NCBI GenBank assembly: GCA_963674705.1
Contig: OY771506.1
Location: 3,744,001 to 3,808,000 of the forward strand
Direction of reading: 5' to 3'
Source of the DNA: Phycisphaeraceae bacterium
Lineage (GTDB): Bacteria > Planctomycetota > Phycisphaerae > Phycisphaerales > Phycisphaeraceae
DNA length: 64,000 bases
The notes below the pieces were generated by a model. It made no database searches and was not told where the DNA came from. It saw only the letters and a list, made by a program, of their open reading frames with translations. Both the position numbers and the translations under genes were made by a program. Of this stretch, positions 4,694-60,769 are shown one piece after another; the first letter of the stretch is position 1, and every line of letters starts with the position of its first letter.

Positions 4694-4740
4694 CTCCCAT
4701 TCCCCGCGGGAGACTTCCGGGGGGCCGGGGTGAGGGCCGG
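4694..4740. repeat. Family A REP copy interrupted by an 8-bp insertion (CTTCCGGG)
   Basis: Aligns to the other CCCTCTCCC/GGGAGAGGG-GGGGTGAGGGCCG copies except for the insert at about 4714-4721. Confidence 0.7.
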
Positions 4741-4954
4741 ATTCCTTAATCCTCTCGCAGCAGTGGAAAGCTGTTAGCTTGGGCATGACGAAGCATTAAT
4801 TCCCATATATGTGCTTCAAAATTGCATGTGCCCCGGTTATCATGTGCCTGACGCCCCTCCCATCCGGGGGCCCGGGGTCCGGTATCAGCATGATCATGTT
4901 GCAGACATACACATCCAGTGCGACTTAGCGTGAGTCTTCCCAAGAGGAGGCAGT

Positions 4955-7900
4955 ATGAATCCGGCGATGACTGATCCCAACGAGCAGCGCATGATGAGCC
5001 TGTCTTTTCTGAAACCGCTCGGCATGCTGTTGATTGCCCCGGCGTTGTTGTCCTATTGCGCCAGCCAGGTCGAGGCTGCTATCACGCCCACGGGTGATGT
5101 CACTCCGGTCTATACCGGCGCCGATCCTTGGGAAGTTGGTGGCTCGCTCGTTGTCGGCTACAACGCTGACGGAACATTTTATATGGACGAAGCCAGTGTT
5201 GTGGATACCGGCAGTGGTGCTGCAGTTCTCGGTTTAGTGTCGAATGTTACGGGGACCGCCACCGTCAGTGGTCAAGCCACGTTCCTGGATGCTTACGTCT
5301 TGAGGGTTGGCGAAAGCGGCACAGGCATACTTAACATCGAACATGCCGGCGAAGTCAACAGTTCATTTGCCTATATCGGCATGTCATCCGGATCAAACGG
5401 GACGGTCAACATCACGGGTCCAGATTCCTATTGGTGGAACCGTTACACCGTCGAGGTCGGCGTCTGGGGCACGGGTACGTTGAATATCGAAAACGGTGGT
5501 CGGCAATCGCAAACCAACATACGCTTTGGTCTACGCGCCGGGTCACAAGGTAGTGCCACAATCACAGGCACCGATTCGTTTGGTGGTTTTTACAACCTCA
5601 TCGTAGGAGATCACGGTGAGGGCTCGATCAATATCCTTGACGGCGGTCAGGTAAACAGCACATCCGTCCACCTCGGTTTTTATGACGATTCGTCCGGTGT
5701 TGTCACCGTATCCGGACTCGCATCAACATGGAATGTAAGTGGGAATCTCAGGATCGGCGAATATGGCCTGGGTGAGATGACGATCGCAGACGGCGGGGTG
5801 GTGACTAGCGCACAGAATTATATCGGTGCTCTTACAGGATCACACGGAGAGGTCACCATCACAGGCGCCGGATCAACGTGGAACACGACCTCATGGTTGT
5901 ATGTAGGCTTCTACGGTGAGGGATCGCTAACCGTTGAGGACGGGGGTGTGGTTAATACCTACACCAGCTCTATTGTACGCAATTCGGGTATCGTAACGAT
6001 CGATGGTGTCGGTTCAGTCTGGAAAATCGATAATGCACTGGCGATCGGCTCAAGCGGAACAGGAACACTGAATATCAGCAATGGCGGGTTGGTCAATGTC
6101 TCGGGGCAGGCAGATATCGGTCCCGGCGGGGTCATCAACTTCGATAACGGCACGCTCAATACGGGCCGGTTGATGGTCCCGGATAGTGTGCTGCTTGGGA
6201 CCGGCACCGTCAACACAAAAAGCCTGATTGCCGACTTCGATCTGGTCTTCGACGCTTCTACCGGCCATCAGGCTCAGACCGTCATAAGCAACTTTCCGGA
6301 CCAGCACATCACGTTAAACATAGACGCCTCGAACGCAGAGGATACCGGCCCGATGGGTGCCGGCCGTATCGGCACGGGCTCGTTGACCATTGCGGACGGT
6401 TTGTCGTTAACTTACAGCGAAGGATTTCTTGGGCATGATGCTGCATCGGTAGGTTCGGCTTTGGTTACCGGTTCAGGATCGGCATGGAACAGCATAAATG
6501 AGTTATATGTTGGCCACTCTGGGTCGGGTACGCTGCGCGTCGATAATGGTGGATTGGTCACCAATGCAACCGGCTATATAGGCTACGATTCCGGCTCGGT
6601 CGGTGCAGCCATAGTTGATGGGGCCGGTTCTGCATGGCTGAATAACGGTGACCTGACTATCGGGCAAAGCGGCTTGGGAACGCTCAGGATTCAAAATGGC
6701 GCGGTGGTGACTAACAACAATGGCTATCTCGGAACTGATACCGAAGCCAACGGCTCTGTTGTCGTGTCGGGTGCCGGTTCGACTTGGAACAACTCAGGTC
6801 AAATCCATATTGAGAATACAAGTACCCTGCAAATCGAAAGCGGCGGATCGGTTATCAGTAGCGGTGGATCAATTAGCAACAACCTTGGTTCTGATTCGAC
6901 GGCCAGCGTTGGAGGGATTGACTCGCACTGGGATGTTGCGGGAACGCTTGTGGTTGGCGGACAAGGTACAGGCACTTTAACGGTCCATAGTGGTGGGAGT
7001 GCGAGCAGCACGAATGCGTATCTTGGTAAGGAAGCCGGTAGCTCGGGGCTTGCAACTATCAGCGGTGCCTACTCAACTTGGAACAATAGCAATAACCTAT
7101 TCGTCGGCTTTGAAGGATCAGGTTCGCTTGAGATCTACAACGAGGGCCACGTCTCCGTAGCAGGGCGCACCGTTGTTGGTGCCGGTAGTACCATCACTTT
7201 TAATGACGGTACACTGGACACGGGGGCATTGGAAGCGACGAACGATGCCTTGTTAGGTCAAGGGACTATTAACACAAAGGCCATGATTGCCGATGCCGAC
7301 CTGGTATTCAACCAAGCAACAGGATTGCAGACGCAGTTCGTGATTAACAACATACCCGGCCAAAATATCACGGTCCATCTTGATGCTGTGGCTCCGGTGA
7401 GTAATAGCAAAATCGGCGTAGGCAATACCGGTACGGGCACGCTATCGGTCAGTGATGGATTGACCTTATCTTATTACGAGGGGTTCCTGGGATACGAGCC
7501 CGGCTCATCAGGTTCTGCAACTGTCACCGGTACGGGCACAACCTGGAACAATAGCGGCGATCTGCGCGTGGGATATTACGGGCAAGGCAGCCTGACCATT
7601 GAAGATGGTGGGACAGTTAATAATGCCACTGGTTCTATTGGTTATTACCCCGGTTCGAGTGGCACGGTTATCGTCTCAGGCGCGGGCTCCAGTTGGTACA
7701 ACAGCGGCCGTTTGATTGTCGGGAATTATGGCGATGGCATGTTACGTATCGAAGAGGGGGGAAGTGTTGAGGTCATCTATAATCTTACGATGGGCTACCC
7801 TCACCCCCTGGCCGGCAGTGGTACAGTAGATCTGATGGGTGGCACGCTCGACCTGCACGGCAGTGACATCATCCAAAGGTCAGATGCCTCTGTGTTTAAC

Positions 7901-8590
7901 TTTACCGGTGGAACTTTAAGAGGTGTTAGACGGCTGTCTTTAAATCATGCGTTTACCCAAAGCGGTGGTGTCCTCGCTCCGGGTGATTCAATCGGCACGA
8001 CCATTATTTACCAAGACTACATACTATCGGCTGGATCCATTGAACTGGAATGGGGCGGCATCGGTTATACCTATGATCAAGTAATCGCCACCGGCAACAT
8101 CCACATCGCCTTAGCGGGGACAACGCTCGATCTGTTGCCATTTGGACCTATGGCTGCCGGTACCTACACGGTGTTGGTATCGACAGAAGGCTCGCTTACC
8201 GGCACCTTCGAACACATCACCGGCATCGTTGAATACGCGGGTCTCGTCGATGTAACCTACACCGCTAACGCTGTACAGATCACACTCAACCGCGACTTCG
8301 TCCCCGGCGACCTAAACGCTGACGGCTTCGTCGGCCTCGACGACCTCGATATCGTCATCACTCACTGGAACCAGACCGTCCCCGTCGCCGACCTCACACA
8401 AGGCGACTACTCCCGCGACGGCTACGTCGGCCTCGACGATCTTGATGCGGTCTTGCAAAACTGGAACCAAGGCGCGCCCCCAAGTGGCATTACACAAAAC
8501 ATCCCCGAGCCGAGTATGTTTGTTTTGCTTGCTTTCGGCGCGATAGGTGGTACATATAGATTATCCAGTCGATGTGCTGCTCGTGGTTGA
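4955..8590 (+). CDS. Large secreted beta-helix repeat protein (T5SS/PEP-CTERM-associated repeats) with dockerin-like domain and PEP-CTERM tail
   Basis: Signal peptide; repeated G..S.W....L.VG..G.G.L.I..GG.V units; GDLNADGFVGLDDLD x2; IPEP followed by TM and basic tail. Confidence 0.9.
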   Translation: MNPAMTDPNEQRMMSLSFLKPLGMLLIAPALLSYCASQVEAAITPTGDVTPVYTGADPWEVGGSLVVGYNADGTFYMDEASVVDTGSGAAVLGLVSNVTGTATVSGQATFLDAYVLRVGESGTGILNIEHAGEVNSSFAYIGMSSGSNGTVNITGPDSYWWNRYTVEVGVWGTGTLNIENGGRQSQTNIRFGLRAGSQGSATITGTDSFGGFYNLIVGDHGEGSINILDGGQVNSTSVHLGFYDDSSGVVTVSGLASTWNVSGNLRIGEYGLGEMTIADGGVVTSAQNYIGALTGSHGEVTITGAGSTWNTTSWLYVGFYGEGSLTVEDGGVVNTYTSSIVRNSGIVTIDGVGSVWKIDNALAIGSSGTGTLNISNGGLVNVSGQADIGPGGVINFDNGTLNTGRLMVPDSVLLGTGTVNTKSLIADFDLVFDASTGHQAQTVISNFPDQHITLNIDASNAEDTGPMGAGRIGTGSLTIADGLSLTYSEGFLGHDAASVGSALVTGSGSAWNSINELYVGHSGSGTLRVDNGGLVTNATGYIGYDSGSVGAAIVDGAGSAWLNNGDLTIGQSGLGTLRIQNGAVVTNNNGYLGTDTEANGSVVVSGAGSTWNNSGQIHIENTSTLQIESGGSVISSGGSISNNLGSDSTASVGGIDSHWDVAGTLVVGGQGTGTLTVHSGGSASSTNAYLGKEAGSSGLATISGAYSTWNNSNNLFVGFEGSGSLEIYNEGHVSVAGRTVVGAGSTITFNDGTLDTGALEATNDALLGQGTINTKAMIADADLVFNQATGLQTQFVINNIPGQNITVHLDAVAPVSNSKIGVGNTGTGTLSVSDGLTLSYYEGFLGYEPGSSGSATVTGTGTTWNNSGDLRVGYYGQGSLTIEDGGTVNNATGSIGYYPGSSGTVIVSGAGSSWYNSGRLIVGNYGDGMLRIEEGGSVEVIYNLTMGYPHPLAGSGTVDLMGGTLDLHGSDIIQRSDASVFNFTGGTLRGVRRLSLNHAFTQSGGVLAPGDSIGTTIIYQDYILSAGSIELEWGGIGYTYDQVIATGNIHIALAGTTLDLLPFGPMAAGTYTVLVSTEGSLTGTFEHITGIVEYAGLVDVTYTANAVQITLNRDFVPGDLNADGFVGLDDLDIVITHWNQTVPVADLTQGDYSRDGYVGLDDLDAVLQNWNQGAPPSGITQNIPEPSMFVLLAFGAIGGTYRLSSRCAARG

Positions 8591-8595
8591 ATTGT

Positions 8596-10356
8596 ATGTG
8601 CAATAAGAAGTCTATTATCCCCGTGCTTGTGTTGGCAACGCTTGCGACAGGTATCAATACCACGCTGGCCGCCATCACAGCCACGGGTGATATCACCCCT
8701 GCCTATGATGAAACTGATCCGTGGGAACTAGGCGAAGGCGATCTGTACATCGGCGACACCGCCGCGGGCATGCTCCAGATTGATTCAGCAAGCATCGTGA
8801 ATAATGCCCTTGCAAGCATCGGGCACAACACCGGCTCGAGCGGGACCGTCATCGTGACCGATCCCGGTTCTGAATGGAACAACGCCGGCGATCTGAACGT
8901 CGGCCAGCAAGGCACCGCAACACTTACAATCCAAAACGGCGCTACCGTCCGCAACGCGATAGCAAACCTCGGCATCACGAACAATACAACCGCCACCGCG
9001 ACGATCACCGATCACGGCTCTACCTGGTATTGCTCCGGCCGAATGAACGTCGGCCTGTCCGGCACATGCATCGTTACACTCAACATTGAAAACGGCGCAA
9101 GAGTCGAAAGCCCATCAGGGCTCGTGGGCGCAAGTTCCATTTCAACTGGCATCGCCAACATCACCGGGCCGGGCTCAGCATGGATCAACAACACCGTCAT
9201 GACGATCGGCCTCTCCGGCACCGGCACGTTGAATATCACCAACGGCGGCTACGTGCATAACACCAATGCTGTTTTTGCTAACAGCGTCTCCGCGACTGGC
9301 TCTGCCACCGTCGCCGGCAGCGGATCGCTCTGGGAAAACACCGGCAGCATGTCCGTCGGCCAGTTCGGTCAAGGCACACTCAATATCGAAGATGCCGGCA
9401 AAGTCACGACCGATATCGCCTACATCGGCTATTACAATTCAACCGGCACCGTCACCGTCACCGGTGCCGACTCGCTTTGGGACAACGCCGATACTTTGCA
9501 TGTCGGCTATGGCGCTGTCGGCACGCTGAATCTCTACACCGGCGCAACCGTTAGCGCAGGCAACGATCTAAGCATCGGCACGTATTCCTTCGGCACAGGC
9601 ATCCTCAACCTCGCCGGTGGAACGCTTGATATGAAAGGCTCAAACCTCACCGCAGGCGACGGCGCAGCCACCTTCAACTTCACCGCCGGCACACTCAAAA
9701 ACGCCGCAACAATCGATCTCAAACAACCCTTCATCCAAAACGGCGGCACCCTCGCCCCCGGCGGCTCCATCGGCCAATCAAACATTCTAGGCGACTACCA
9801 ACTCAACGCCGGCACACTCGAAATCGAACTCGGCGGCATCGGCAATCCCCACGACCTGCTCACCGTCACAGGCAACATCGACATTACTCAACTCGATACC
9901 ACGCTCAGCCTGTCGATCGTGGGTTCGGTCATACCCGGCACGTACACCATCATCGAATCAACCGCCGGGACACTCACCGGCCAGTTTGAAAACATCATCG
10001 GCCTGGATAGCTACCCCGGCACGTTCGATGTGCAGTACACCGCCAACGCAGTGAACCTCATCCTCAACGCACTCTCAGGCGACCTCAACGCCGATGGCTT
10101 CATCGGACTCGACGACCTGGACATCGTATTACTTCACTGGAACCAAACCGTCACCCCCTGGGACCTATCCTCCGGCGACACCACCGGCGACGGCTACGTC
10201 GGCCTCGACGACCTCGACCTCATCCTGTCCCACTGGAACCAAGGCACACCGCCAAGTAATACAAGCACAATCATCCCCGAACCCGGATCGTCTGCGGTGC
10301 TATTGCTGACATTGATCGGTTGCTCAGGCAGGGCGTTCCGGTGCAGGATGGTATGA
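8596..10356 (+). CDS. Second beta-helix repeat/dockerin/PEP-CTERM paralogue
   Basis: Same architecture; ATG at 8596 gives a signal peptide just after the upstream stop. Confidence 0.9.
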   Translation: MCNKKSIIPVLVLATLATGINTTLAAITATGDITPAYDETDPWELGEGDLYIGDTAAGMLQIDSASIVNNALASIGHNTGSSGTVIVTDPGSEWNNAGDLNVGQQGTATLTIQNGATVRNAIANLGITNNTTATATITDHGSTWYCSGRMNVGLSGTCIVTLNIENGARVESPSGLVGASSISTGIANITGPGSAWINNTVMTIGLSGTGTLNITNGGYVHNTNAVFANSVSATGSATVAGSGSLWENTGSMSVGQFGQGTLNIEDAGKVTTDIAYIGYYNSTGTVTVTGADSLWDNADTLHVGYGAVGTLNLYTGATVSAGNDLSIGTYSFGTGILNLAGGTLDMKGSNLTAGDGAATFNFTAGTLKNAATIDLKQPFIQNGGTLAPGGSIGQSNILGDYQLNAGTLEIELGGIGNPHDLLTVTGNIDITQLDTTLSLSIVGSVIPGTYTIIESTAGTLTGQFENIIGLDSYPGTFDVQYTANAVNLILNALSGDLNADGFIGLDDLDIVLLHWNQTVTPWDLSSGDTTGDGYVGLDDLDLILSHWNQGTPPSNTSTIIPEPGSSAVLLLTLIGCSGRAFRCRMV

Positions 10357-10558
10357 GCGATCCGGCGGTCCCCGACGGCTGTCTCATTCCGAGCGGCCGG
10401 TCTGCTAATCCCTGAAATAGTCTCCAATTACAGCAACATAACCGCAACAAATAATTGCTCTGACAGGGGATTAGGTTATACTTTGATACTGCGTATCGAA
10501 GATTCCGCTGGGGGCCTACCCCTGCAGTGCTTTTGTTAATTTGAAGGGGAAGGCAAGC

Positions 10559-13500
10559 ATGCTTCTGTACCGATCTGTCGGCCGTCGTCCGGGTAACTTG
10601 GGTAAATCCTGTGTCACAACCAGCGGTTGGTTGTCCGCCACAGCGCTGGCTTGCCTCGGCGTTGTTTGCATCTCTAGTTACACAACGCCCGCTTACGCGG
10701 AGATTGTCTTCAACGGCCAACTGAGCAATCCTCAGTATACGGGCGACGATCCCTGGTTCATTAATGGAGATCTGGAAGTTCGCCAGCACTCGATATTCGG
10801 TGATTATCCCGATGCGCTGGTGATCAACGATGGCAGCAGTATCTACAACAACGATGGATACATAGGCGGGTTCTTCTCGTTCCAGGAAGTTCGAGTCACC
10901 GTAACAGGCAACGACTCGCTCTGGCGCAACAGCGGCAGCCTGTACATCGGTAATAGGTATGACCCCGGCGTGCTTAACATCGAAGACCAGGCACTGGTCC
11001 GTGTTGACGGCGACACATGGGTAGGATCGCCTGCTTACGATAGTGGTACTATCCACTTCGACAACGGCACACTCGAAACCTCCGGCCTCTACGCCGCCGC
11101 GACGGACCTGCTCGGCACGGGCACGATCAATACAAACACTATCGTCGGTGACATCGACCTGGTTTTCAATCAGGCAAGCGGGTTACAGCTTCAACACATT
11201 CTGAATACTGAACCCGACCAGAACGTCACCATTAATATTGACGCTTCTGATCCAGCCGCCAACCGGGCCATGGGCGCGGGGTACGACGGCGTCGGCTCGT
11301 TAACAATCTCAGATGGCATTTCGCTTACCTCAAACGAAGGCTTCCTGGGATACCTCTATCAATCGCAAGGCACAGCCAACGTCAACGGCGCGAACTCACA
11401 CTGGCAGATCAACGAGTCGCTATATGTAGGCCGCATCGGCACAGGCACACTCAATATCGAAGATGGCGGCGTCGTCACCGTCGGACTGGATACCTTTGTC
11501 GGCTTCGACGAAAATGCTTCGGGTACCATCCACCTGGATAACGGCACGCTCAACACGTCAGGCCTATGCGCCGCCACCGATGATCTGACCGGCACCGGTA
11601 CAATCAATACCCACGGCCTCGTCAGCGACATCGATCTCATCATCAGCAATCCGTCCAATCTGCAAGTGCAGAAAATCCTCAATAGCAGTCCCGACCAGAG
11701 CATCACACTCAACCTCGACGTCTCAGACCCCGCGCAAAACCGTGCGTTGGGCGCGGGCTTCAAAGGCAACGGTTCACTGACGATCGCGGAAGGCGTTTCT
11801 GTTTCTTCAACAGAGGCGATGCTCGGCTACCACGAAGGCTCTAACGGAACAGTTACTATCGCCGGTGCAAACACCGAATGGCTCATCGCCGGTCCGCTTC
11901 AGGTAGGCTACGAAGGCAACGGAACCTTGAGCATCGGACTTGGCGCTTACGTTCAGACGGCGGATGCATGGATCGCAAACAGGTCCGATTCTGTCGGCAC
12001 ATTGGCCGTCAGAGGGGTTGATTCACAATTAATCACCAGCGAAAACCTCTACGTCGGCGAACGCGGCAACGCAACGATGTCGGTCGAGGCTGGCGGATTC
12101 GTTCATAACGACAATGCCTACGTCGGTAACAGCGCCAGCGGCACAGGCACCGTCACGGTCAGCGATGCCGATTCGCTCTGGCAGGTCGACTATCAGTTTT
12201 CCATCGGCCACGAAGGCGCCGGCGAACTCACGATTCATAACGGCGGCCAAGTCTTAATCAATGAATACCATCCCCGCAACAATACCGCCGACATCGGTTT
12301 CGCCGAAGGCGCGAGTGGTAGCGTCCTTGTCACCGGCATCGGCTCGACGCTCCAGACGGACTGCCAGCTTAACATCGGTAGCGCCGGCACGGGCGTCCTC
12401 GACATTCAAGACGGCGCAACCTTAACCACGACGTCCGTACGCCTCGGTAGCGAAACCACCGGCGCCGGCACGGTCAACGTCACTGGCACGCAGTCCACAT
12501 GGACAATCGAAGATGAAATCGTCGTCGGTAAACTCGGCTTAGGCGAACTTAACATCACCAACGGCGGATCGGTAACCGGCGGGGTCTATTACCATGCGAT
12601 CTTCGCAACGATCGGCGGTGAACCCGACGCAACAGGTACAGTCCTGGTTGATGGCGCTGGCTCGCACTGGGACATGCTCGGCACACTTTCCGTTGGCATG
12701 CAAGGGACGGGCACTCTTTCGATCGCGAACGATGCCGTCGTCAATGTCAGCCGGACTACCACCGTTGCCGAAGAATCATCCGCAACAGGTACCATTAACT
12801 TCGTTAATGGAACGCTCAACACCGCCGGACTGCTCGCTTCCACCGACGACCTACTCGGCACCGGTACGATCGAGACCAAAGGCATCGTCAGTGACATCAG
12901 CCTGCAATTCGATCAAACCACCGGCCCCTACCAGCAACTGACGCTCAACACCCAGCCGAACCAGTATATTTCCATCAACATCGATGCGACCGACAGTACC
13001 GCCTATGGCACGCTCGGCGCCGGTTACCGCGGGTTCGGCAGCCTCACGGTTTCGCAAGGCGTCACGGTCAATTCCAGTTTCGGCATACTCGGCGATAAGC
13101 ACGGCTCATACGGAACCGCAGCTATTCAAGGCCAGGATTCTCGCTGGTATTCGGGCTACGAACTGACCGTCGGTAATCGCGGCATCGGGGCTATGGGCAT
13201 TACAGACGGCGCTTCGGCAGGCGGCGACTCACTCTACGTCGGTAGAGAGGCTGGAAGTTACGGCAGCATAGACGTCTCGGATAGCGGTTCAACCTTATAT
13301 GCCAACGAAGCATACATCGGTTACAACGGCACCGCTTCCCTCGATATACGTAACGGCGCGCTGCTCTCGACCGAGGATTTGTATGTCGGCTATTACGCAG
13401 ATTCGCATGGAACCCTACACCTTGCTGGCTCAGCAACCTCATGGAATACCGATAGCTTCTCCATCGGCTCCGGTGGTTCCGGCATACTTACAATCCAGGA

Positions 13501-14773: not shown

Positions 14774-14869
14774 CACTCAACAAGAACGATTCATTCACGA
14801 AATGCAAAAACCACCATCAAAATGAGATGGCGATTTATCATTGAGTTTGTTTGCTCGTGTAGATAATAC

Positions 14870-15746: not shown

Positions 15747-16865
15747 ATGCTCATAGCCATGAAACTAAGCCGAATCATCGAAGCATTGGAGTCGTTAGCG
15801 CCGCAACACTTAGCGGAGTCGTGGGACCAGGTGGGTTTGCATGTGGGTAATCCCGAGCAACGGGTTAGCCGTGCGATGTTGTGCATCGACCTGACTGAAT
15901 CGGTCCTGGATGAAGCGATCACGCAGCAGATACAACTGATCGTGGCCTACCATCCGCCGATCTTCAAGCCACTTGCGCGACTGACGACGACGGATCTCAA
16001 GCAACGGATCATCCACACCGCCGCCCGCAAAGGCATCGCCATCTACAGCCCGCACACCGCGTTAGATGCAGCTAAAGGCGGTGTTAACGACTGGTTAGCC
16101 TATGGTTTAGGAGCCGGCAGCGTCCGTGTCATCAAACCGTGCGACTGCACTGCCAAGCGGTTCAAGCTCGTGACATTCGTGCCGTTCGAAGCGCTGGATG
16201 CTGTCCGGACAGCGATCTGCAATGCCGGTGCAGGGCGGATCGGCGAGTATGAACTGTGTTCGTACGCCTCCGACGGTACGGGAACCTTCAAGGGTGGGAA
16301 CGCAACCTCACCCACGATCGGCCAAGCAGGGCGGTTTGAGCGGGTCGAAGAGGCCCGATTGGAGGTGCCCGTCCCAGCAAACCGGCTGGCGGACGTCCTT
16401 TCAGCCCTGCGGACTGCGCATCCATACGAGGAACCAGCCTTCGATGTCTACCCGCTCGAGTCGGTATCCGACACTCAAACCGGACAGGGGCGGGTCGTCA
16501 CGCTGGACAAACCGGTTTCTCTAACTAGCCTCACCAAAAGGATTAAGGATCATCTAGGCGTCAAGCATCTGGAGGTGACCGCGGGCATGGGCCAGTCGAG
16601 CATCCAGCGGATCGGCCTGTGTGCGGGGGCTGGGGGTTCGCTGATGTCGGATGCGGGGCCGATCGATGCCTTCTTCACCGGCGAGATGCGGCATCACGAT
16701 GCTCTGGAAGCCGCCGGCCGAGGCGTCGCGGTGATTCTGGCAGGGCATACGCAGACAGAACGTCCGTACCTGCCGACCTTCCGCGGCAATCTAAAGAAGC
16801 TGACAGGTAGTGCGGTCACCTGGCAGATCAGCCGACAAGACAAGCCCCCGACAGAAGTTAAGTAA
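15747..16865 (+). CDS. Nif3-like (YbgI/YqfO) dinuclear metal-centre protein with PII-like insert
   Basis: AESWDQVGL, AYHPPIF, SPHTALD, GGVNDWLA, HPYEEPAFD, TGEMRHH, GHTQTE. Confidence 0.92.
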   Translation: MLIAMKLSRIIEALESLAPQHLAESWDQVGLHVGNPEQRVSRAMLCIDLTESVLDEAITQQIQLIVAYHPPIFKPLARLTTTDLKQRIIHTAARKGIAIYSPHTALDAAKGGVNDWLAYGLGAGSVRVIKPCDCTAKRFKLVTFVPFEALDAVRTAICNAGAGRIGEYELCSYASDGTGTFKGGNATSPTIGQAGRFERVEEARLEVPVPANRLADVLSALRTAHPYEEPAFDVYPLESVSDTQTGQGRVVTLDKPVSLTSLTKRIKDHLGVKHLEVTAGMGQSSIQRIGLCAGAGGSLMSDAGPIDAFFTGEMRHHDALEAAGRGVAVILAGHTQTERPYLPTFRGNLKKLTGSAVTWQISRQDKPPTEVK

Positions 16866-16946
16866 CCCCCGGAAGTGCCCCCGGAAGTGCCCTCGGAAGT
16901 GCCCTCGGAAGTACCGCGGAACTGCCCTGGAACTGCCCGCACAAGT
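16866..16946 (+). repeat. Tandem array of about 7 x 11-12 bp units (GC+CCCCGGAAGT), degenerating left to right
   Basis: cccccggaagt gcccccggaagt gccctcggaagt gccctcggaagt accgcggaact gccctggaact gcccgcacaagt. Confidence 0.9.
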
Positions 16947-17100
16947 GTTTTGATGCATCGCCCAAAGCCCACCACTTGTCAGGCCACCCCGCAACCCAGC
17001 CGTTTGGCACGCGCCATGGAGCCTGTTACAATGCTGTGCTAACTATTAACCGTCGCCCCGGACCGGCCGGGGCTGCCAAACCGAGACGGAGATTACTCTC

Positions 17101-27492: not shown

Positions 27493-30300
<2,808 letters not shown>

Positions 30301-47549: not shown

Positions 47550-47562
47550 TAATATTACGTCT

Positions 47563-51495: not shown

Positions 51496-51520
51496 CAAGT
51501 CCTAATCAGTGCCTGTATTC

Positions 51521-51639: not shown

Positions 51640-51683
51640 CCGGAACAGTCTTGCATTGTTTACGCACTTGCTGACTGTTCATA

Positions 51684-52706: not shown

Positions 52707-52716
52707 GGTATTGGGT

Positions 52717-53616: not shown

Positions 53617-53634
53617 GGTTTTGGCTGGGGTTTA

Positions 53635-54306
53635 TCACGTGGTTGGTTTGTGGAACGAGACACGATATCGGCTTGAGCCTAATGCGACAATCCTTACGAC
53701 GTCGCCGACCTGCATGTCGTTTGCCTGATAGTAGGCGCCCCAGCCGCGCCAACGCAACATGGGCTTGCCCTTCGCGAAGTCGGTTTTGACTTCTTGGCCG
53801 TCCGGCATCAGCAGCGTCAGTGATTTGTTACGTATTTTCTCGGAAGCAGCGGGCAGGCTCAGGTAACGATTGCGGATCGCCCCGGCTGTCAGCGTCACTT
53901 CCATCAATGGGCTCAGCCAATCCTCCAGCACATGCCATGCTCGCAGAGACTTGGGGTACACCGGCCCGACATCAATCGGTTCGACATCCTTCAGGTGAAC
54001 AAAGGTGGTGTATCGGCAATCCAGTTTCTGCTGTAAGTATTCACTGTTACCACAGATCGCATGATTGAGACGCGCGTAAATCTGTTTGATTTTGTCAGGC
54101 GTCAGGTCCGCGTGTTGTTCGACCTTGCCGGCTAATGCGGTGGCGACGAACGGGCCTGAAGAGATCTTGATGAACAGGCGTTCACCCGTTTGGATGGCGT
54201 TGTATGGAGGCTGCGGCGTCTTCGTCAGTCGACTCTCCACGGTCTTGCGCCCGGAAAGAATCAACTTGGCGTAATGCTTCTTAAGAATCGCGACATGGAT
54301 CGCCAT
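53635..54306 (-). CDS. ASCH-domain protein with additional C-terminal domain
   Basis: ILSGRKTVESR (GxKxxExR ASCH motif). Confidence 0.8.
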   Translation of the reverse strand: MAIHVAILKKHYAKLILSGRKTVESRLTKTPQPPYNAIQTGERLFIKISSGPFVATALAGKVEQHADLTPDKIKQIYARLNHAICGNSEYLQQKLDCRYTTFVHLKDVEPIDVGPVYPKSLRAWHVLEDWLSPLMEVTLTAGAIRNRYLSLPAASEKIRNKSLTLLMPDGQEVKTDFAKGKPMLRWRGWGAYYQANDMQVGDVVRIVALGSSRYRVSFHKPTT

Positions 54307-54344
54307 GGGGTCATCGTATCAGGGAACGTGGGGCAATTCGAATG

Positions 54345-54505
54345 AACCACAGAGACACAGAGGCACAGAGACAAGGCATTTGTAACAGGGATAAACACAG
54401 ATGAACACAGATTAGGAAATTAATTCAAACAAATTCTTCCCATCTGTGTTCATCTGTGTCCATCCCTGTTTCTATTCCTCTCTGTAACTCTGTGTCTCTG
54501 TGGTT
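54345..54505. repeat. Doubly nested inverted repeats built from short tandem units
   Basis: Outer 54345-54371/54479-54505 (aaccacagagacacagag..); inner 54384-54412/54442-54470 (aacagggataaacacagatgaacacagat). Confidence 0.9.
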
Positions 54506-54514
54506 TAAAAATGA

Positions 54515-55339
54515 TCAGACAAAAGCCTTGTACAGCATTCTCGCGCCTGCGACAGCGGCACCGAGGTACATGATGAGGGTGAAGGGTTTTTCCGCCAGTC
54601 GTTTGTGCATCCATAGGCCGGCCATGATGCCGACGGGGACGAAGGTGGCGAACAAGGCGGATTCGACAAGTGTCCTGCTGTTGATCAGGCCCAGGCCGAT
54701 GTAGGTCGGGAGCTTTGAGCAATTGACGACGAGGAAGAAGAGTACCATCGTTGCGACGAGGCGCGTCTTTTCCATGCGTTGTTCGAGCAGGTAGATCGTG
54801 ATGACGGGGCCGGCGGAGTGAGCGACGGTCGAGACGATGCCGGCAAAGCCGCCGCTGGCGATGCCGCCACCGGGGCCGGGTGGTATGCGGGGCACGTAAC
54901 CACCGAGCAGGCGATACAGTTGCAGTGCGACGAACACCAGGCAGATCGAGCCGACGCAGAGGTTAAGCGCAAAGGTGAGTTTGCCGGTTTCCTGGAAGGT
55001 CCAGAGCACCCAAGTGCCGAGCAGGATGCCGCAGATCGCCCCGGTCAATAGTGAACGCAGGTGAAGCCAGGAGACGCCTTTTCGATGGCTCCAGACGCTG
55101 AACACGTCAGCCAGGATCAGGATCGGAAGCATCACACCGATGGCCCGCTCGGCCGGTAAGGCGTTGGCGACCAGTGGCACGGCGATCACGCCGACCCCGC
55201 CGCCGAAACCTGCCTTAGCGATACCAATAGTCAGCACGCCCAGACCGAGCGCCGTGATGTACCACCAGAGCGGGGTGCTGGCAGGCAACTCCGGTAGCAG
55301 GTCGGATAGCGTGGCGAGTGTGTAGATCAAGCTAGGCAT
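54515..55339 (-). CDS. TauE/SafE family (TSUP) transporter
   Basis: GIAKAGFGGG; AHSAGP; KLPTY; about 8 TM. Confidence 0.88.
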   Translation of the reverse strand: MPSLIYTLATLSDLLPELPASTPLWWYITALGLGVLTIGIAKAGFGGGVGVIAVPLVANALPAERAIGVMLPILILADVFSVWSHRKGVSWLHLRSLLTGAICGILLGTWVLWTFQETGKLTFALNLCVGSICLVFVALQLYRLLGGYVPRIPPGPGGGIASGGFAGIVSTVAHSAGPVITIYLLEQRMEKTRLVATMVLFFLVVNCSKLPTYIGLGLINSRTLVESALFATFVPVGIMAGLWMHKRLAEKPFTLIMYLGAAVAGARMLYKAFV

Positions 55340-55416
55340 GCAGGTAGGGGGAAGTACGAAGTATCAAGGCTGATCAGGCCATCGTTACCAGGATCGCTTG
55401 ACTTCATACTTTATCA

Positions 55417-57381
55417 TCACGTCAGGTAGGTATATCCGCTGAGGCCTTGCTCGAAGAATCGGCGGAGTTGTGTTGCTTCTTCGACGGTCAGGCGATCCGA
55501 GCGTACCGCGGCTTCGATGGATTTGCGGAAGTTGCGTTTCAGGTGTTCTGTATCGTATTGCACGTACTGGAGCACCTCGGAAACCGAATCACCTTCAACG
55601 ACCTCGTCGATCGACATGCGGCCTTGCTCATCGAGACTCACATGCACGGCGTTGGCGTCACCCAGCAGGTTGTGCAGGTCGCCGAGCACCTCCTGATAAG
55701 CGCCGACCATGAAAGCCCCGATGTAGTATTCCTCGCCTGTATACGGATGTAATGGCAGGACATTACCTGTCTGTAGTTTATTGATGAAGCAATCGATCTT
55801 GCCATCGGAATCGCAGGTGATGTCCGCCAGGATGCCGCGGTTGACGGGTTTCTCCTTAAGCCGATGGATCGGCATGATCGGGAAGACCTGGTCGATCGCC
55901 CAACTGTCGGGCATGGACTGGAAGATCGAGAAGTTGCAGAAGTACGTCCGGCAAAGCTGCGACTCAAGCCGCTGCAAATCCTGCGGAGGTTCGGGCATCT
56001 CACGGACATACTGAAGTGTCTTGAAACAGATCGCAAAGTACAAACGCTCAACCAGTGCACGCAACTCAAGCGAGCAGTAACCTAGATTGAACAGGTGCAT
56101 CGCTTCTACACGAGCAACCTGGGCGTCGTGATAGGACTGTGAAAAAGTTTTCTCATCCAGTTCGATGTACGCATCATACAACGAGCGGATCGGGTGTGGC
56201 AGTTCATCAACCTCGCTGCGGGGCATCACGGTCGGCGGCACGAAACCATCAAACCCGGTGGAGCCCAGCACGTTGAAGATCAGCAGACTGTGATAGGCGA
56301 CCATCGCCCGGCCGGATTCGCTGATGATCGTCGGGTGGGGGACTTCAGCCTCGTCGCAGATCTCCAGGACGTGGTAGATCACGTCGCTGGCGTATTCCTG
56401 TAAGGAGTAGTTGATGCTGGAGCCGGTGTCGGTCTTGCTGCCGTCATAATCGACGCCCAGACCGCCGCCTACGTCGATGTACTTCAGGCCCGCGCCGGCT
56501 TTGTAAAGCTCGGCGTAGATCCGGACCATCTCGATAATCGCCCGCTTGATCGGTGCGATTGTCGTGATCTGGCTGCCGAGGTGAAAGTGCAGCAGGTTGA
56601 GGCAATCGAGCATGTCCTCTTTGCGCAGGTACGCCATCGCTTCGAGGACCTCGCCGATGAACAAACCGAACTTCGAATGCACGCCGCCGGATTGCTCCCA
56701 CCGGCCCGAACCCTTGGTTGATAACTTGATGCGCATCCCGATCTGCGGACGCACGCCATGCGTCTTGGCGTGCGTAACAATCAGCTTGAGTTCTGAGAAC
56801 TTCTCTACAACCGGGATGATGTTCTTGCCGAGTTTGGTCGCGAGGATGACTGACTCGATGAATTGGTCGTCCTTGAAGCCGTTGCAGATGATGGGTGTCG
56901 TCTCGTCCTCGACCATAGCCAGCACGGCCAGCAATTCGGGTTTGCTGCCGGCCTCGAGCCCGAAGCCGTGCTCCTGCCCGAACGCCAGGATTTCTTCGAC
57001 GACGTGCCGCTGCTGGTTGACCTTGATCGGGTAGACGCAGCGATAACCCCCGCGGAACTCCATCTCCTCGATGGCGTTTTCAAAGGCCTTGGCCAGTTCG
57101 GACAGCCTGTGGCGGAGGATATCGGTCAGGCGGATCAGCAGGGGGGGTTGCAGGTCGCGCTGCTTGAGTTGATTTGTCAGTTCCATGAGGTCGATACCGA
57201 CACTCGGATCGTGCGTGGGATGGGCGACGACGTGCCCGGCTTCATTGATTGAGAAGTAGCCTCGCCCCCAGCGGTCGACGCCGTAGAGCTTCATGGCGTC
57301 ATCAATGGTCCAAGGGGCCTCGGGGGCTGGCTTGGACTCTGCGTATGGCTTACTCGGGCTGGTGGCTTGGGTTGGATTCAT
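55417..57381 (-). CDS. speA: Biosynthetic arginine decarboxylase
   Basis: YPIKVNQ; EAGSKPEL; HFHLGSQI; DVGGGLGVDYDGS; ESGRA; DITCDSDGKI. Confidence 0.97.
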   Translation of the reverse strand: MNPTQATSPSKPYAESKPAPEAPWTIDDAMKLYGVDRWGRGYFSINEAGHVVAHPTHDPSVGIDLMELTNQLKQRDLQPPLLIRLTDILRHRLSELAKAFENAIEEMEFRGGYRCVYPIKVNQQRHVVEEILAFGQEHGFGLEAGSKPELLAVLAMVEDETTPIICNGFKDDQFIESVILATKLGKNIIPVVEKFSELKLIVTHAKTHGVRPQIGMRIKLSTKGSGRWEQSGGVHSKFGLFIGEVLEAMAYLRKEDMLDCLNLLHFHLGSQITTIAPIKRAIIEMVRIYAELYKAGAGLKYIDVGGGLGVDYDGSKTDTGSSINYSLQEYASDVIYHVLEICDEAEVPHPTIISESGRAMVAYHSLLIFNVLGSTGFDGFVPPTVMPRSEVDELPHPIRSLYDAYIELDEKTFSQSYHDAQVARVEAMHLFNLGYCSLELRALVERLYFAICFKTLQYVREMPEPPQDLQRLESQLCRTYFCNFSIFQSMPDSWAIDQVFPIMPIHRLKEKPVNRGILADITCDSDGKIDCFINKLQTGNVLPLHPYTGEEYYIGAFMVGAYQEVLGDLHNLLGDANAVHVSLDEQGRMSIDEVVEGDSVSEVLQYVQYDTEHLKRNFRKSIEAAVRSDRLTVEEATQLRRFFEQGLSGYTYLT

Positions 57382-57459
57382 AGTTGAAGACCAGGCAGCG
57401 AGGGATTGTCCGGGGGATCAGTTCAGAGTGCAGATGATATAGAGCAAGTCCCGTGACGT

Positions 57460-57488
57460 AAAAGAAAACCCCGCCTGTGGAGGCGGGG
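57460..57488 (-). terminator. Terminator of the PEP-CTERM gene
   Basis: ccccgcct/aggcgggg stem, T-tract on the minus strand. Confidence 0.75.
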
Positions 57489-57518
57489 CGGTTGGTTATG
57501 ATGTTAACGATATACGTT

Positions 57519-58196
57519 TTACGGACGGCGGGTGATCGTCAGCAGGCCCAGGCCCAGCAGGGCGAGTGTGGCCGGCTCGGGGATGCGGGTGAAGTCGACA
57601 TCGATGGTCATGGCCTTCTTATCGATGACGGCTGCATCGTTGGGAGCATTGGAGGAGGCGATCAGGATATTGTCCAGATCGATCCGGATCATGGTGGCTT
57701 GGTAGTTCGACAGATCGAGTTCTGCCATACCAGACCACACCCCGGAGCCTGTCCCCGTCAGCGGCATGGCCGGATCAATAACGATCGGGTCGCTGACAAA
57801 GCCCCCCGTCAGGGGGTCAAGAATCGTCGCCACTAAAGTCCCTCCCGCGGTGACCTCAGCGGTACTGCCCAGCATTAGGTAGTCGCCGATTTCGTCGAGG
57901 CTGATCGATTCTATGAACAGGCCCGGGTCGGCCTGGATGATGAACGAAAGCTGCCCCGCGGTGATGTCCGATCCGGTCCCCGCCTGAGCGGCGGCAAACG
58001 GCCCGGTTGAGAAACTCAAGGAATCATCCACAACGATCGGTGTCCCGAACAGGGGCAACGGATCGGTTGCTGATGACTCGATTAGGTCTGTGACGGTGCC
58101 ACCGTCCAGATAATAAATGGCCCCGGCATCCGCGGTTTGGCTTGAAAGAATTAAGGCCCCGATCGCTACGCTGAGAAGTTCCTTACGTATCCGCAT
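57519..58196 (-). CDS. Small acidic secreted PEP-CTERM protein
   Basis: RBS aggag; signal peptide; IPEPATLALLGLGLL..RR. Confidence 0.9.
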   Translation of the reverse strand: MRIRKELLSVAIGALILSSQTADAGAIYYLDGGTVTDLIESSATDPLPLFGTPIVVDDSLSFSTGPFAAAQAGTGSDITAGQLSFIIQADPGLFIESISLDEIGDYLMLGSTAEVTAGGTLVATILDPLTGGFVSDPIVIDPAMPLTGTGSGVWSGMAELDLSNYQATMIRIDLDNILIASSNAPNDAAVIDKKAMTIDVDFTRIPEPATLALLGLGLLTITRRP

Positions 58197-58219
58197 CCTT
58201 GTCTCTCCTAAATAAGAAA

Positions 58220-58352
58220 AGCTGCTTTCTAGCAACGGAGCGCATCAAAAAAAGAGGGCGGACCTAAGTCCACTCTCTCCTCTCCGATGCGTGCTATTCA
58301 GCGGTGGCTGAAATAAGAGCAGCTACCTATGTTCTATCGACAGAATATAGGA
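58220..58352 (-). promoter_or_regulatory. Structured 5' leader containing a terminator-like hairpin (candidate attenuator/riboswitch)
   Basis: Several complementary stems and a hairpin followed by a T-run just upstream of the RBS. Confidence 0.4.
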
Positions 58353-58711
58353 TAGCCTATCATCGCTGGAATGCAATGGTTTTAGACAAGTTTAACGCGG
58401 TTTTTATAAGTCTTTCTCGCTCTCCTTTCTCCCAAATTGCCAGATTTGGCAATAACTCCTTTATCCGCCGGGGTATCAGGACGCGAATCGGCCTGGCGGA
58501 TACTCCGGTCTGGCCAGAACAGCCATCCCGAATATGCGTAACCTACGGTGCCTGGATTTATATGTCAAGATTTAAATTTATCTTTTTATAGTCGGGAAAA
58601 ATTGCCTAGGTTAACAGGTGGTCCAAGAACCGCCGGGGATTTGCCTGACTCCGGTGATGATTAACTGGTTGGAAGCGGGTATCCGATCAGAAGTCCCCTA
58701 AGCCATCCACT

Positions 58712-60769
58712 TTATAAAAGATCGATATTTGCCAGAAATGGGCTATTGACATGGTGAACACGAATGGGATTGACAATGCTGGTTAACAGCACCCTCATCA
58801 GCCAGAACAGGCCCATATCGACCCGGTGTTCTGAGCCTGATTCGGGTAATGGTGATCCTGTCGCCAGGTTGCTGGGTTGACCATCAATGATTCTGAGTTT
58901 GACCTGACCATCGCAGAGTATCCAAGTACCCGTCCCCTCCACAACGGCGCATTCCAACCTCAGTTCCTGCCCTTGTATCCGAGCCAGTATCAAATACCAC
59001 TCTTGATCTGCCTTGTAGTCCACATAGAACCCGTCATGCGGGGCGCCATCTTCAAATGACTTTCGGCTGCCGAAGAAGCTGGGCTTCTTGATGTAAGGGC
59101 CGCCGTACTCGGGGCAGAACGTATCGCAGTTGCCGCACTGGTTGCAGTAGTCCGCGAAGTTGGCGATCTGCTCGGTCTTCTCGACCTTGAAAGTTTTTTC
59201 TTCGCCGACTTCCATAACCTTTCCAGTTGAAGAGACGGATATGTCTCGGTAAGTGAAATTGATCTCAGGTGTCTCGTACAGGAAGTTCGCATCGTTCGGG
59301 CAGACGGGGATGCACTTGTTGCAGGTGATGCAATCGAAGACCACCAGGTGCGAGTTGATCCGCTTGGGAACCAATTGGTTGTTTTTCTGGTGGTAGCGTT
59401 CATCCGCCTGCGTCTGCTTGACGATGTCGGCCATATTCAGGAAGCCTGCGAGGACCGGGTCGCCGTTGGCTTCATCGGCGTGGCTATAGGCTTTGAGGAT
59501 GTAGTCGTGGATCGTGGCGGCGTTGGTCTTGGTCATGGTCGCGACAAGATCGCCGAGATATCCAGGCAGTCGACCGTAGCCGCCTGGCTTGAGCAGGTCG
59601 GTGCAGGTGGTGATGGGTTTGAACCCGCAGGCGACCATGTTCGGGAAGTTCTTGCGATCAACACCGGCCGAGAACGTGATCGGCATCTCGTGTCCCATCG
59701 CCATCCTGAACTCATGCGCCAGCGTCAGCGTGATCACATGCAGCGGCGGGCCCGACAGGTACATCACCTTGTTGTCGGGTGTGAAAAAGTCTCGGTGATT
59801 TACGACTTCCAGCGTATTCGAGAACTTCGCCCCGAATGATCGGCCTTGTTGCTTGGCAAGACTTTCCAAGCGTTTACAGATCTGGATTGATTCATCAAAG
59901 AGCAGGCCGCTGGTATACGCCCCCGAATTGACCTGCACCTCGTGATACCCCATCACATCGTGCAGCAGGTATTCCAGTTTCTCTTTGCCCAGCATCGGCG
60001 GATTCATCTTGACGATGACATCGACGCCAATTTCGGTCAACAGGAACTCGCAGATGCGTTCGATTTCGTCGGCCGGGCAGCCGTGGAACGTCGAGAGCGT
60101 GATGCTGCTGCTGAGCTTGGTCGGATAGTCAAGGTCGCGCAGGTGTTTGAGCCGGTCAGGCAGTTGATCGAGCAGGCGTGCGATGTGTTCGCTTGCATCG
60201 AGCATCCCGTTCATGAATCGGCGGATCGGCTCGGACTGGATGCCCTTCAGGTCGTATCCGACGGACATATCAAAGATCGTGTCGCCCAGCGGTCCGGCCA
60301 TCGTCAGATCGCCGAAGGGATTGCCGAACGTCTCGGGGCTGCTGCGGAGCATGTGGATGAGCATCGCACCCTGGACATACTGATCCAATGAATCCTCCAG
60401 GCACAGCTCCTGCGACCATTCCACGTTGTAGCCGACGTTGGCCGCGTCGATGCACGGCCGGGGTATCTCCAGCCGGTCGTTGATCTGCACGGTCTTCAGC
60501 TCGAAGATCCGCGACCCCGCCAGCCAGGCGAGGATCAGGTTCTGAGCCATCTGCGTCTGGGGCCCGGCCGCGGGTCCGACTGGATTGGCAGCCCGTCGGC
60601 CGTGAAAGGTGACCGACAGGTCCGGGCCATCAGCACTTCCGGGGAAACTTCCGGGGGCGGGGCGGTACCACTTTTTATCCGGCAGATCGAACATACTCGA
60701 CCGGGTCTTGTGTTCAAGACGCATCCGGTCAATCAGGTCCACAAACGGTGTGCAATACAGGTCTACCAT
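58712..60769 (-). CDS. ygfK: YgfK-like oxidoreductase: DHOD-like barrel plus 2x[4Fe-4S], lacking the GltD-like module
   Basis: VGPAAGPQTQMAQN, ELKTVQ, NVEWSQE, STFHGCP..EIE, TDLLKPGGYGRL; CxxCxxCxxxCP x2. Confidence 0.85.
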   Translation of the reverse strand: MVDLYCTPFVDLIDRMRLEHKTRSSMFDLPDKKWYRPAPGSFPGSADGPDLSVTFHGRRAANPVGPAAGPQTQMAQNLILAWLAGSRIFELKTVQINDRLEIPRPCIDAANVGYNVEWSQELCLEDSLDQYVQGAMLIHMLRSSPETFGNPFGDLTMAGPLGDTIFDMSVGYDLKGIQSEPIRRFMNGMLDASEHIARLLDQLPDRLKHLRDLDYPTKLSSSITLSTFHGCPADEIERICEFLLTEIGVDVIVKMNPPMLGKEKLEYLLHDVMGYHEVQVNSGAYTSGLLFDESIQICKRLESLAKQQGRSFGAKFSNTLEVVNHRDFFTPDNKVMYLSGPPLHVITLTLAHEFRMAMGHEMPITFSAGVDRKNFPNMVACGFKPITTCTDLLKPGGYGRLPGYLGDLVATMTKTNAATIHDYILKAYSHADEANGDPVLAGFLNMADIVKQTQADERYHQKNNQLVPKRINSHLVVFDCITCNKCIPVCPNDANFLYETPEINFTYRDISVSSTGKVMEVGEEKTFKVEKTEQIANFADYCNQCGNCDTFCPEYGGPYIKKPSFFGSRKSFEDGAPHDGFYVDYKADQEWYLILARIQGQELRLECAVVEGTGTWILCDGQVKLRIIDGQPSNLATGSPLPESGSEHRVDMGLFWLMRVLLTSIVNPIRVHHVNSPFLANIDLL

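What the first reader, a model, noticed from the sequence alone, without database searches (positions are those of the whole stretch)
4713..60658. A fixed 10-mer (ACTTCCGGGG / CCCCGGAAGT) appears to be inserted at unrelated loci
Seen: five exact copies at three unrelated sites. One sits at 4713-4722 inside a family A REP whose sibling copies read gggaga-gggc with no insert, so 8 bp (CTTCCGGG) have been added. Two sit at 16867-16888, heading a 12-bp-period tandem array. Two sit at 60635-60656, again with 12-bp period, in-frame in ygfK (PGSF-PGSA). A 9/10 match lies at 63361-63370. An exact 10-mer is expected less than once by chance in this much sequence. Inference: a mechanism writes or selects a constant short motif, often as frame-preserving 12-bp units. 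Candidates include a templated or polymerase-driven insertion, an excision footprint, or an uptake/recombination/segregation signal analogous to DUS, HIP1, Chi or KOPS. I know of no named element with this sequence.
Basis: partly seen in the sequence, partly recalled or inferred. Interest (0 to 1): 0.8.

Follow-up and report, generated by a model that had tools for sequence, protein, structure and literature searches.

The report
Family-wide DNA tag written into genomes
One family of planctomycete bacteria, and some phage records, carry a fixed 10-11-letter DNA tag that turns up as new insertions and overwrites at unrelated places, likely written by an unidentified enzyme that copies one short template onto broken DNA ends, much as telomerase does.

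Summary
The unit is CCCCCGGAAG(T/C): the 11-mer occurs 58 times against 2.7 expected. Across 140 family genomes the 10-mer occurs 2-1,182 times (control median 7). Of 301 phylum genomes, those checked outside this order were near background.
Against a 93%-identical relative, 19 of 71 aligned sites are block insertions or replacements; the clean ones show no target duplication. All 16 gains in coding DNA are in frame. Divergence is one-sided. Truncated units share the C-run start, older copies decay on the 3' side, and the bases after the tag are not copied from nearby.
Best reading (0.55): templated, telomerase-like addition at breaks or nicks, then joining. Against it, no writer or template was found. 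Reverse transcriptase is missing from the five motif-rich genomes tested, and LigD occurs only in motif-poor ones. Rivals are an uptake-type signal under drive (0.2) and capture of a fixed primer (0.15).
Ten paper searches and three look-ups of this scan's notes returned no description of it.

The parts
4713..4724 (+). Tag ACTTCCGGGG(GG) made by an 8-bp insertion (4714-4721) into the GGGAGA^GGG stem of a REP arm
   Evidence: 6 of 230 arms filled in this genome; filled here and in G004 (#18); at two other orthologous REPs G004 is filled (8 and 9 bp) and G000 empty (#56, #57)
16866..16947 (+). Polar array of seven 11-12-bp units (CCCCCGGAAGTG x2, then progressively decayed), starting at the first base after a stop codon
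   Evidence: G004 has a different single-copy allele at this site; two other runs' contigs have about 101 and 65 bases where the window has about 160 (table 8)
15747..16865 (+). Nif3-like dinuclear metal protein gene whose TAA abuts the array (context)
   Evidence: TIGR00486 above cut-off
60635..60663 (+). Two in-frame tag copies (12-bp period) plus a truncated CCCCG unit on the C-run side, in a variable N-terminal loop of the YgfK-like protein
   Evidence: absent in 6 of 6 other species of the genus, three copies in G004
58712..60769 (-). YgfK-like ORF (N-terminal part of the selenate-reductase YgfK family), host gene of the insert
60795..60830 (+). Empty sibling REP (GGGAGA-GGGC), the comparison for the 4713 site
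63361..63370 (+). GCTTCCGGGG, a 9/10 match encoding K-L-P-G-T in frame; probably chance
   Evidence: orthologous G004 bases were not located

Best explanation
A fixed unit, CCCCCGGAAG(T/C), appears as block insertions and overwrites at unrelated sites across this bacterial family, and it is likely written by an unidentified polymerase that copies one short template onto free 3' ends at breaks or nicks. SHOWN: filled and empty orthologous sites; no target duplication at the clean ones; one intact flank (the C-run side) and one replaced flank; nested truncated units sharing the C-run start; a variable base after the last template position; polar arrays; in-frame survival in genes. INFERRED: the 3' end, often ending in C or CC, is extended 5'-CCCCCGGAAGT-3' from a fixed template start. 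Cycles often abort after CCCCCG, CCCCCGG or CCCCCGGAA and restart. A few untemplated or error-prone bases follow, and the end is joined to the far side with loss or replacement of about 0-30 bases. Existing copies are re-used as primers, so arrays grow at their 5' end and creep up to the nearest constrained base, such as a stop codon or tRNA end. Ordinary slippage then changes unit number, and purifying selection keeps in-frame events in loops. Enzyme and template are unknown, and the enzyme is not a Pfam-detectable reverse transcriptase.
For: (1) G004 vs G000, 93% identical over 679 kb aligned: of 71 motif clusters with a spanning alignment, 40 are shared, 12 differ by 1-2 bases and 19 are block changes. 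Clean cases include +8, +9, +18 and +24 bp. (2) In one continuous 217-kb alignment that includes the window's orthologue, 6 of 33 length-changing blocks carry the 8-base core against 0.27 expected; 0 of 2000 simulations reach 6. (3) Motif-gain blocks are multiples of 3 in 16 of 16 coding cases and 2 of 8 elsewhere. (4) Differing columns 11-40 bases from the motif: 0.193 on the side 3' of the C strand against 0.073 on the other, 42 vs 16 sites, Wilcoxon p=1e-5; this holds at shared sites too, 0.146 vs 0.042. (5) Consensus fades stepwise at the 3' end (G019: G 99/130, T 57/99, G 32/57, then none). Single internal mismatches stay near background while end variants are common. (6) Truncated prefix units sit directly 5' of 109 of 787 cores against 101 of 17,628 control C-runs. 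(7) Decayed copies lie on the 3' side: 47 vs 18 in 82 clusters from 72 tandem loci; 13 vs 1 in phage records. (8) 6 of 45 intergenic clusters start 0-1 base after a sense stop codon (null 0.4%, p=5e-8), and none of 53 copies does so in mirror orientation. (9) Near pairs: 124 direct, 17 converging, 3 diverging. (10) The bases after the tag in 14 fresh events match neither other tag sites (at most 9 bases) nor the surrounding 6 kb (8-11 bases).
Against: No writer was found. PF00078 RT is in 12 of 41 relatives and absent from motif-rich G009, G016 and G022 and from 5 of 5 very rich genomes. An RT profile finds only one retron-like gene in G000. LigD is in 4 of 41, all motif-poor. PolX is in 36 of 41, rich and poor alike, with canonical motifs. 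No template was found: not in 6S RNA; the rRNA spacer copy is not conserved; G000's 16S, RNase P RNA and tmRNA regions give at most 7-8 bases. Some events have the changed tract on the other side (#4; 16 of 58 untied sites). In conserved proteins 25 of 50 sites are gapless with changed residues and only 15 of 50 are insertions (control 2 of 82), which a selected signal would also give. Prefix units could also arise by slippage anchored on the C-run. The 17 converging pairs may be hairpin elements. No event was seen happening; direction is polarised by outgroups only for ygfK and weakly for one more site, and at one site (#20, L330) the outgroup suggests loss in G000.
Confidence: 0.55

Rival explanations
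1. The tag is a recognition signal (DNA-uptake-type, or a self-mark for a nuclease or nucleoid protein) that is driven or selected. New copies come from rare mutation, short ectopic conversion from existing copies and slippage, and are then fixed.
For: Densities reach 1 per 3 kb (G387). Internal mismatches are scarce. Many coding copies are gapless residue changes in permissive spots. New neisserial DUS also often differ too much from homologous sites to be point mutations and lie in permissive regions (PMC2397512, passages). ComEC is in 39 of 41 genomes.
Against: Spacing is random (CV 1.03), whereas uptake sequences are more even than random (PMC2817400, passage). Two motif-selected phage records are far denser than the host (46 and 251 vs 1.6 per 100 kb), whereas DUS are absent from recently acquired genes (PMC2397512). 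Pairs are mostly direct. It does not predict one-sided replacement, nested truncations or polar decay. Donor flanks were not found. Counts vary about 100-fold inside one genus, and ComEC does not track them.
Confidence: 0.2
2. The G strand is the product. A fixed, purine-initiated 11-12-base primer or oligonucleotide (5'-RCTTCCGGGGG-3', from a site-specific primase or an RNA fragment) pairs by its G-run with C-rich target DNA, is extended along the host template, and its unpaired 5' part is kept after sloppy joining.
For: The G strand starts with A or G in G000 (58 and 26 of 89). The flank beyond the G-run is the intact one. Prim-Pol genes are in 4 of 5 rich genomes tested.
Against: There is no lagging-strand bias (37 of 58 G strands on the leading strand, the same as plain G5 runs at 62%). 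The first base is often C or T in G019. The Prim-Pol genes differ in length, one is broken, none was found in the richest genome, and they have no conserved tag beside them. 6S RNA lacks the sequence, so it is not a 6S product RNA.
Confidence: 0.15
3. The tag is the footprint or abortive end of a mobile element (IS, MITE, intron, prophage end).
For: It occurs inside REP-like hairpins and inside IS coding sequences and is dense in two phage records.
Against: There is no shared sequence beyond 11-12 bases on either side, no target duplication at clean sites, and no longer element ending in the tag among the G000 and G004 sites. The IS matches are ordinary internal codons.
Confidence: 0.06
4. It is a sequencing or assembly artefact, or chance slippage in low-complexity DNA.
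For: It contains a G-run. Tandem matches in unrelated taxa exist.
Against: It is present in 80 of 140 assemblies at 50 or more copies and near control level in others. Coding gains are in frame, 16 of 16. Copies decay like real sequence. A run's own contigs match the window without difference at 4713 and 16866 (possibly the source sample, so weak). Tandem hits in other taxa are mostly a coding T-P-E-V repeat with spacer CA (27 of 51).
Confidence: 0.02

Closest known systems
Telomerase and short interstitial telomeric sequences (short ITS); review PMC9693754, passages read
   Same: A fixed repeat placed at internal sites in unrelated flanking DNA, proposed to be added during break repair and later changed by slippage. 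Irregular truncated units resemble abortive telomerase cycles (recalled).
   Different: Here the host is a bacterium; no RT or template RNA was found; there is no sign of terminal arrays; most events are one or two units; many overwrite an equal length of DNA.
DRT10 (UG17) tandem-repeat reverse transcriptase; PMC12632851 passages, bioRxiv 10.64898/2026.04.29.721553 abstract
   Same: Bacterial, iterative copying of a short template into head-to-tail units.
   Different: DRT10 is protein-primed, needs an RT, ncRNA and SLATT effector, and its template is poorly conserved between homologues; the passages read do not describe genomic insertion. Here one sequence is constant across a family and no RT is found in the richest genomes tested.
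DNA uptake sequences (Neisseria DUS, Pasteurellaceae USS); PMC2397512 and PMC2817400, passages read
   Same: A non-palindromic 9-11-mer, lineage-specific, on both strands equally, under-represented in coding DNA, in permissive protein positions; new copies are often far from the homologous sequence.
   Different: Random spacing, direct tandem arrays, nested truncations, one-sided replacement, length-changing insertions, high density in phage records, and a 100-fold spread within a genus.
Chi and KOPS (recalled)
   Same: Short G-rich non-palindromic motif with a one-sided effect on neighbouring DNA.
   Different: No replichore polarity beyond that of G-runs; the affected tract is only 10-40 bases; copies arise as blocks.
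HIP1 of cyanobacteria (abstract listing PMC13756078; mechanism recalled)
   Same: Lineage-wide over-represented oligomer, also inside genes.
   Different: HIP1 is a methylated palindrome; this tag is asymmetric (only its CCGG centre is palindromic) and arrives by block change.
Ku/LigD end joining and microhomology-mediated joining (recalled)
   Same: Junctions with small deletions, added bases and short microhomology.
   Different: Those add variable or locally templated bases, not a constant 11-mer; LigD was found only in motif-poor genomes.

Membership tests
Telomerase/DRT10-type repeat addition | A reverse transcriptase that co-occurs with the repeat | tested here: not met
   RT in 12 of 41 relatives, 0 of 5 very rich genomes; these are MAGs 85-98% complete and very divergent RTs could be missed
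Telomerase/DRT10-type repeat addition | A conserved ncRNA carrying the template | tested here: inconclusive
   not in 6S RNA, a conserved rRNA spacer site or G000's 16S, RNase P RNA and tmRNA regions; unknown RNAs were not surveyed; the SRP RNA was not located
Telomerase/DRT10-type repeat addition | Units share a fixed start, end raggedly and concatenate head to tail | tested here: met
Telomerase/DRT10-type repeat addition | Enzymatic addition to a 3' end | not testable with these tools
   needs biochemistry
DUS/USS uptake signal | Strong over-representation without strand bias | tested here: met
DUS/USS uptake signal | Spacing more even than random | tested here: not met
   CV 1.03 over 79 clusters in G000; richer genomes not tested
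DUS/USS uptake signal | Scarce in recently acquired or foreign DNA | tested here: not met
   46 and 251 per 100 kb in two phage records (chosen by motif) vs 1.6 in G000
DUS/USS uptake signal | Sequence-biased DNA uptake | not testable with these tools
   ComEC in 39 of 41 genomes; no uptake assay; ComP not searched
Chi/KOPS | Strong orientation along replichores | tested here: not met
   37 of 58 on the leading strand vs 62% for all G5 runs
HIP1-type | Palindromic methylase target | tested here: not met
   the sequence is not its own reverse complement; methylases were not searched
Ku/LigD NHEJ scar | LigD polymerase present where scars are | tested here: not met
   4 of 41 genomes, all with 15 or fewer copies; Ku not searched
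IS/MITE footprint | Target-site duplication or a longer element with this terminus | tested here: not met
   one site (#5) could be read as a 3-bp duplication

The most novel reading that the evidence does not exclude
Phycisphaeraceae have a telomerase-like repair activity that uses no recognisable reverse transcriptase. An enzyme with a built-in 11-12-base template caps broken or nicked DNA with CCCCCGGAAGT. It leaves hundreds to more than a thousand dated scars per genome, marks phage DNA even more heavily, and grows Gly/Ser/Pro loops in core proteins. This would be a bacterial counterpart of interstitial telomeric insertion and a new class of template-carrying polymerase.
Probability: 0.35. 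Interest if true: 0.95.

Novelty: categorically new. Interest (0 to 1): 0.82.

Why it matters
Whatever writes it, a constant sequence entering a bacterial chromosome as new blocks at unrelated sites does not match the known over-represented motifs compared here. If an enzyme adds it, this is a natural sequence-writing activity at DNA ends with no recognisable RT, which bears on the origin of telomerase-like chemistry and on DNA-writing tools. The scars would also map where these chromosomes break (hairpins, gene ends, phage DNA) and show a mutational source of protein loop growth. The 100-fold spread within one genus makes the responsible gene findable by plain gene-content comparison.

Tried and rejected
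Template candidates. The 23S-5S spacer hairpin holds the tag in G000 and G004, partly in G009, and not in the other spacers read. 6S RNA was found below cut-off in 14 of 20 genomes with no match to the tag within 2 mismatches. A copy just 5' of an RNase P RNA-type motif in G019 is absent from G000. RT loci carry no conserved tag.

Writer candidates. RT, LigD (45), PolX (70, 75), Prim-Pol (109, 112) and an ETS-like domain (79; none over cut-off; tried because CCGGAAGT is the recalled ETS consensus) did not fit. A second Y-family polymerase looked promising. In 140 genomes it is in 62 of 84 rich and 23 of 56 poor ones (Fisher p=2e-4, kin not independent; 5 split or partial genes counted as present), but it is missing from G387, G442, G404 and G383, so it is not required. 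Phage record G041 shows DnaE, primase, helicase and a Rad52-like gene but no RT; most of its proteins are unannotated (134 of 201 called ORFs scanned).

Other checks. An apparent strand skew in G009 was a listing effect. An outgroup search for one coding site found nothing. No RNA holder was listed. Read-level detail of the 16866 array is missing. For one search, the 124 tandem loci were split by title and pattern: 72 as Planctomycetota, and 51 as other, including 6 Planctomycetota-titled loci (L077, L103, L118, L124, L147, L185); L128 was left out as the window's orthologue.

Literature. Searches were (listings only unless named in the report); none listed a paper on this motif. The library lacks most subscription papers, and no supplements were opened.

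Full report
1. Observation. All five copies are at the stated places; shuffles give 0.21. The REP insert, the 12-bp array and the in-frame PGSF-PGSA are as described. The 63361 near-match encodes K-L-P-G-T and is probably chance.

2. The unit. The window's genome (5.54 Mb, one contig) has 73 copies of the 10-mer against 9-15 expected under Markov orders 1-6. The sharp unit is longer: ACTTCCGGGGG 58 against 2.7 and GCTTCCGGGGG 26 against 3.3, with other single-base variants near expectation. Read on the C strand it is CCCCCGGAAG(T/C). It is about 4.5 times denser outside called genes, randomly spaced, and no more biased to the leading strand than plain G-runs.

3. Distribution. The family is taken as Phycisphaeraceae from record titles: a locus so titled carries the same ygfK-like N-terminus (L128), and such titles are the commonest among the tandem hits. 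In 140 family genomes CCCCCGGAAG occurs 2 to 1,182 times; 80 have 50 or more and 29 have 15 or fewer; the reversed control has median 7. One genus spans 4 to 773. One sister family of the order is also enriched (G038 50, G033 21). Among 301 phylum genomes the 11-mer is otherwise near control, apart from two genomes with 27 and 17 copies. Two motif-selected phage records are very dense: 90 copies in 194 kb and 17 in 6.8 kb. Tandem hits in unrelated taxa are mostly a coding T-P-E-V repeat, a different thing.

4. It enters as blocks. Six of six other species of the genus lack the PGS units in the YgfK-like protein, and G004 has three. I fetched all 105 exact G004 sites and 857 kb of that genome. 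Of 71 clusters with a spanning syntenic alignment, 40 are shared, 12 differ by one or two bases and 19 are block changes. The remaining clusters had no spanning syntenic alignment and were not counted. The cleanest cases are +8 and +9 bp in two orthologous REPs that keep their locus-specific flanks, +18 bp, and +24 bp in frame. In a continuous 217-kb alignment that includes the window's orthologue, 6 of 33 length-changing blocks hold the core against 0.27 expected. Gains are multiples of three in 16 of 16 coding cases and 2 of 8 others. In conserved proteins of richer genomes, 15 of 50 sites align as insertions (control 2 of 82), 25 as gapless changes and 10 as conserved residues. Overwriting or selection without length change is therefore common too.

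5. Anatomy of an event. The flank before the C-run is intact and the flank after GGAAGT is altered: 0.073 against 0.193 differing columns at 11-40 bases, 42 against 16 sites. This also holds where both genomes keep the tag; control motifs, with few sites, show no such tilt. Consensus fades base by base after CCCCCGGAA and is gone by position 13. Truncated prefixes stand directly before 109 of 787 cores against 101 of 17,628 control C-runs. Spacers between full units vary (28 kinds in 72 loci) and decayed copies lie 3'. Six of 45 intergenic clusters begin 0-1 base after a sense stop codon, against 0.4% by chance, and none does so in mirror orientation. Several copies abut tRNA ends. Near pairs are 124 direct, 17 converging and 3 diverging. 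The bases after the tag in 14 fresh events have no donor at other tag sites or within 3 kb.

6. Mechanism. Taken together, these features read most simply as repeated copying of one short template from a fixed start onto a 3' end, with early exits, a few untemplated or error-prone bases, and joining. Re-priming at old copies would explain one-sided turnover at shared sites, polar arrays and the pile-up at gene ends. All of this is inference from sequence. The search for the enzyme failed. RT does not track the tag and is missing in five very rich genomes. LigD is only in poor genomes. PolX and ComEC are almost universal. A Y-family paralogue is associated (62 of 84 against 23 of 56) but missing from several of the richest genomes. 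Prim-Pol genes look like assorted mobile-element genes. No template was found among the RNAs checked. I therefore give the writing model 0.55, a driven recognition signal 0.2, a captured fixed primer 0.15, a mobile-element footprint 0.06 and artefact 0.02.

7. Comparison. It works like short interstitial telomeric insertion (PMC9693754, passages) and like DRT10 repeat addition (PMC12632851, passages; bioRxiv 10.64898/2026.04.29.721553, abstract), but it fails the RT test for membership. It shares abundance, permissive placement and divergent new sites with DUS/USS (PMC2397512 and PMC2817400, passages), but differs in spacing, tandem anatomy, one-sidedness and phage density. Chi, KOPS, the HIP1 mechanism, ETS and yeast-type abortive telomerase cycles are recalled, not read. 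PMC12926913 (one passage) says over 90% of Planctomycetes have PolX. Ten searches of the paper library listed no paper on this motif; most subscription papers are not held. This scan's notes showed nothing on it (one search dropped the motif words). One note, e1-2844426, describes an analogous stop-flanking, in-frame repeat family in an archaeon, which I did not test.

8. Verdict. The feature is real, family-wide, polymorphic between close relatives, and not described in what I could search. The phenomenon is well supported; the enzyme is not identified. Interest 0.82.

Noticed in passing
L478, L471, L472, L475, L470, L497 (PolX, loop between SxRT and QVDLR): In six species of the window's genus this PolX loop has grown by about 10-15 Gly/Ser-rich residues built largely from full and decayed tag copies (G009: ASGGTSGGGASGG); G000, G004, G005 and G010 have the short loop.
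   Followed up: partly
G000:C1:622400-634800 and G041:82500-93100: The genome holds an array of about 30 tRNA genes in nearly the same order as the array of a 194-kb phage record, sharing an HNH gene and a small ORF, without the other phage genes.
   Followed up: partly
G000:C1:3994500-3994750 (-), L404-L416: A conserved 6S-like RNA in 13 family genomes scoring below the Rfam cut-off, with a TATAAT upstream in most and a terminator.
   Followed up: partly
L241 (G000:C1:1951400-1955026): Retron-like RT (YADD, VTG motif, about 430 aa) next to an unannotated gene, shared with G004.
   Followed up: no
G000:C1:2735608-2736819: A second Y-family polymerase with intact catalytic motifs, distinct from DinB, in 85 of 140 family genomes; within genus g251 present in 12 of 13 motif-rich and 0 of 3 motif-poor genomes.
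   Followed up: yes
L072, L082, L096, L125 and others: Unrelated taxa carry in-frame (ACCCCGGAAGTC)n arrays encoding T-P-E-V repeats at what looks like the same place in related genes.
   Followed up: partly
genome-wide, G000: Other, more abundant short repeat families exist (e.g. GCTAATGGCT, CCCTACACCC, ATACCCGATA, AATCATAAAT), several as 7-bp-period arrays that change length against G004.
   Followed up: no
window 29814-29823 and 62600-62610: Two further relaxed copies, CCCCCGGAAC and CCCCCCGGAAT, that may be truncated tags.
   Followed up: no
G000:C1:2632084 and 4317077: The 16S and 23S-5S rRNA genes are unlinked, and a tag copy forms a GAAA-capped hairpin in the 23S-5S spacer.
   Followed up: partly
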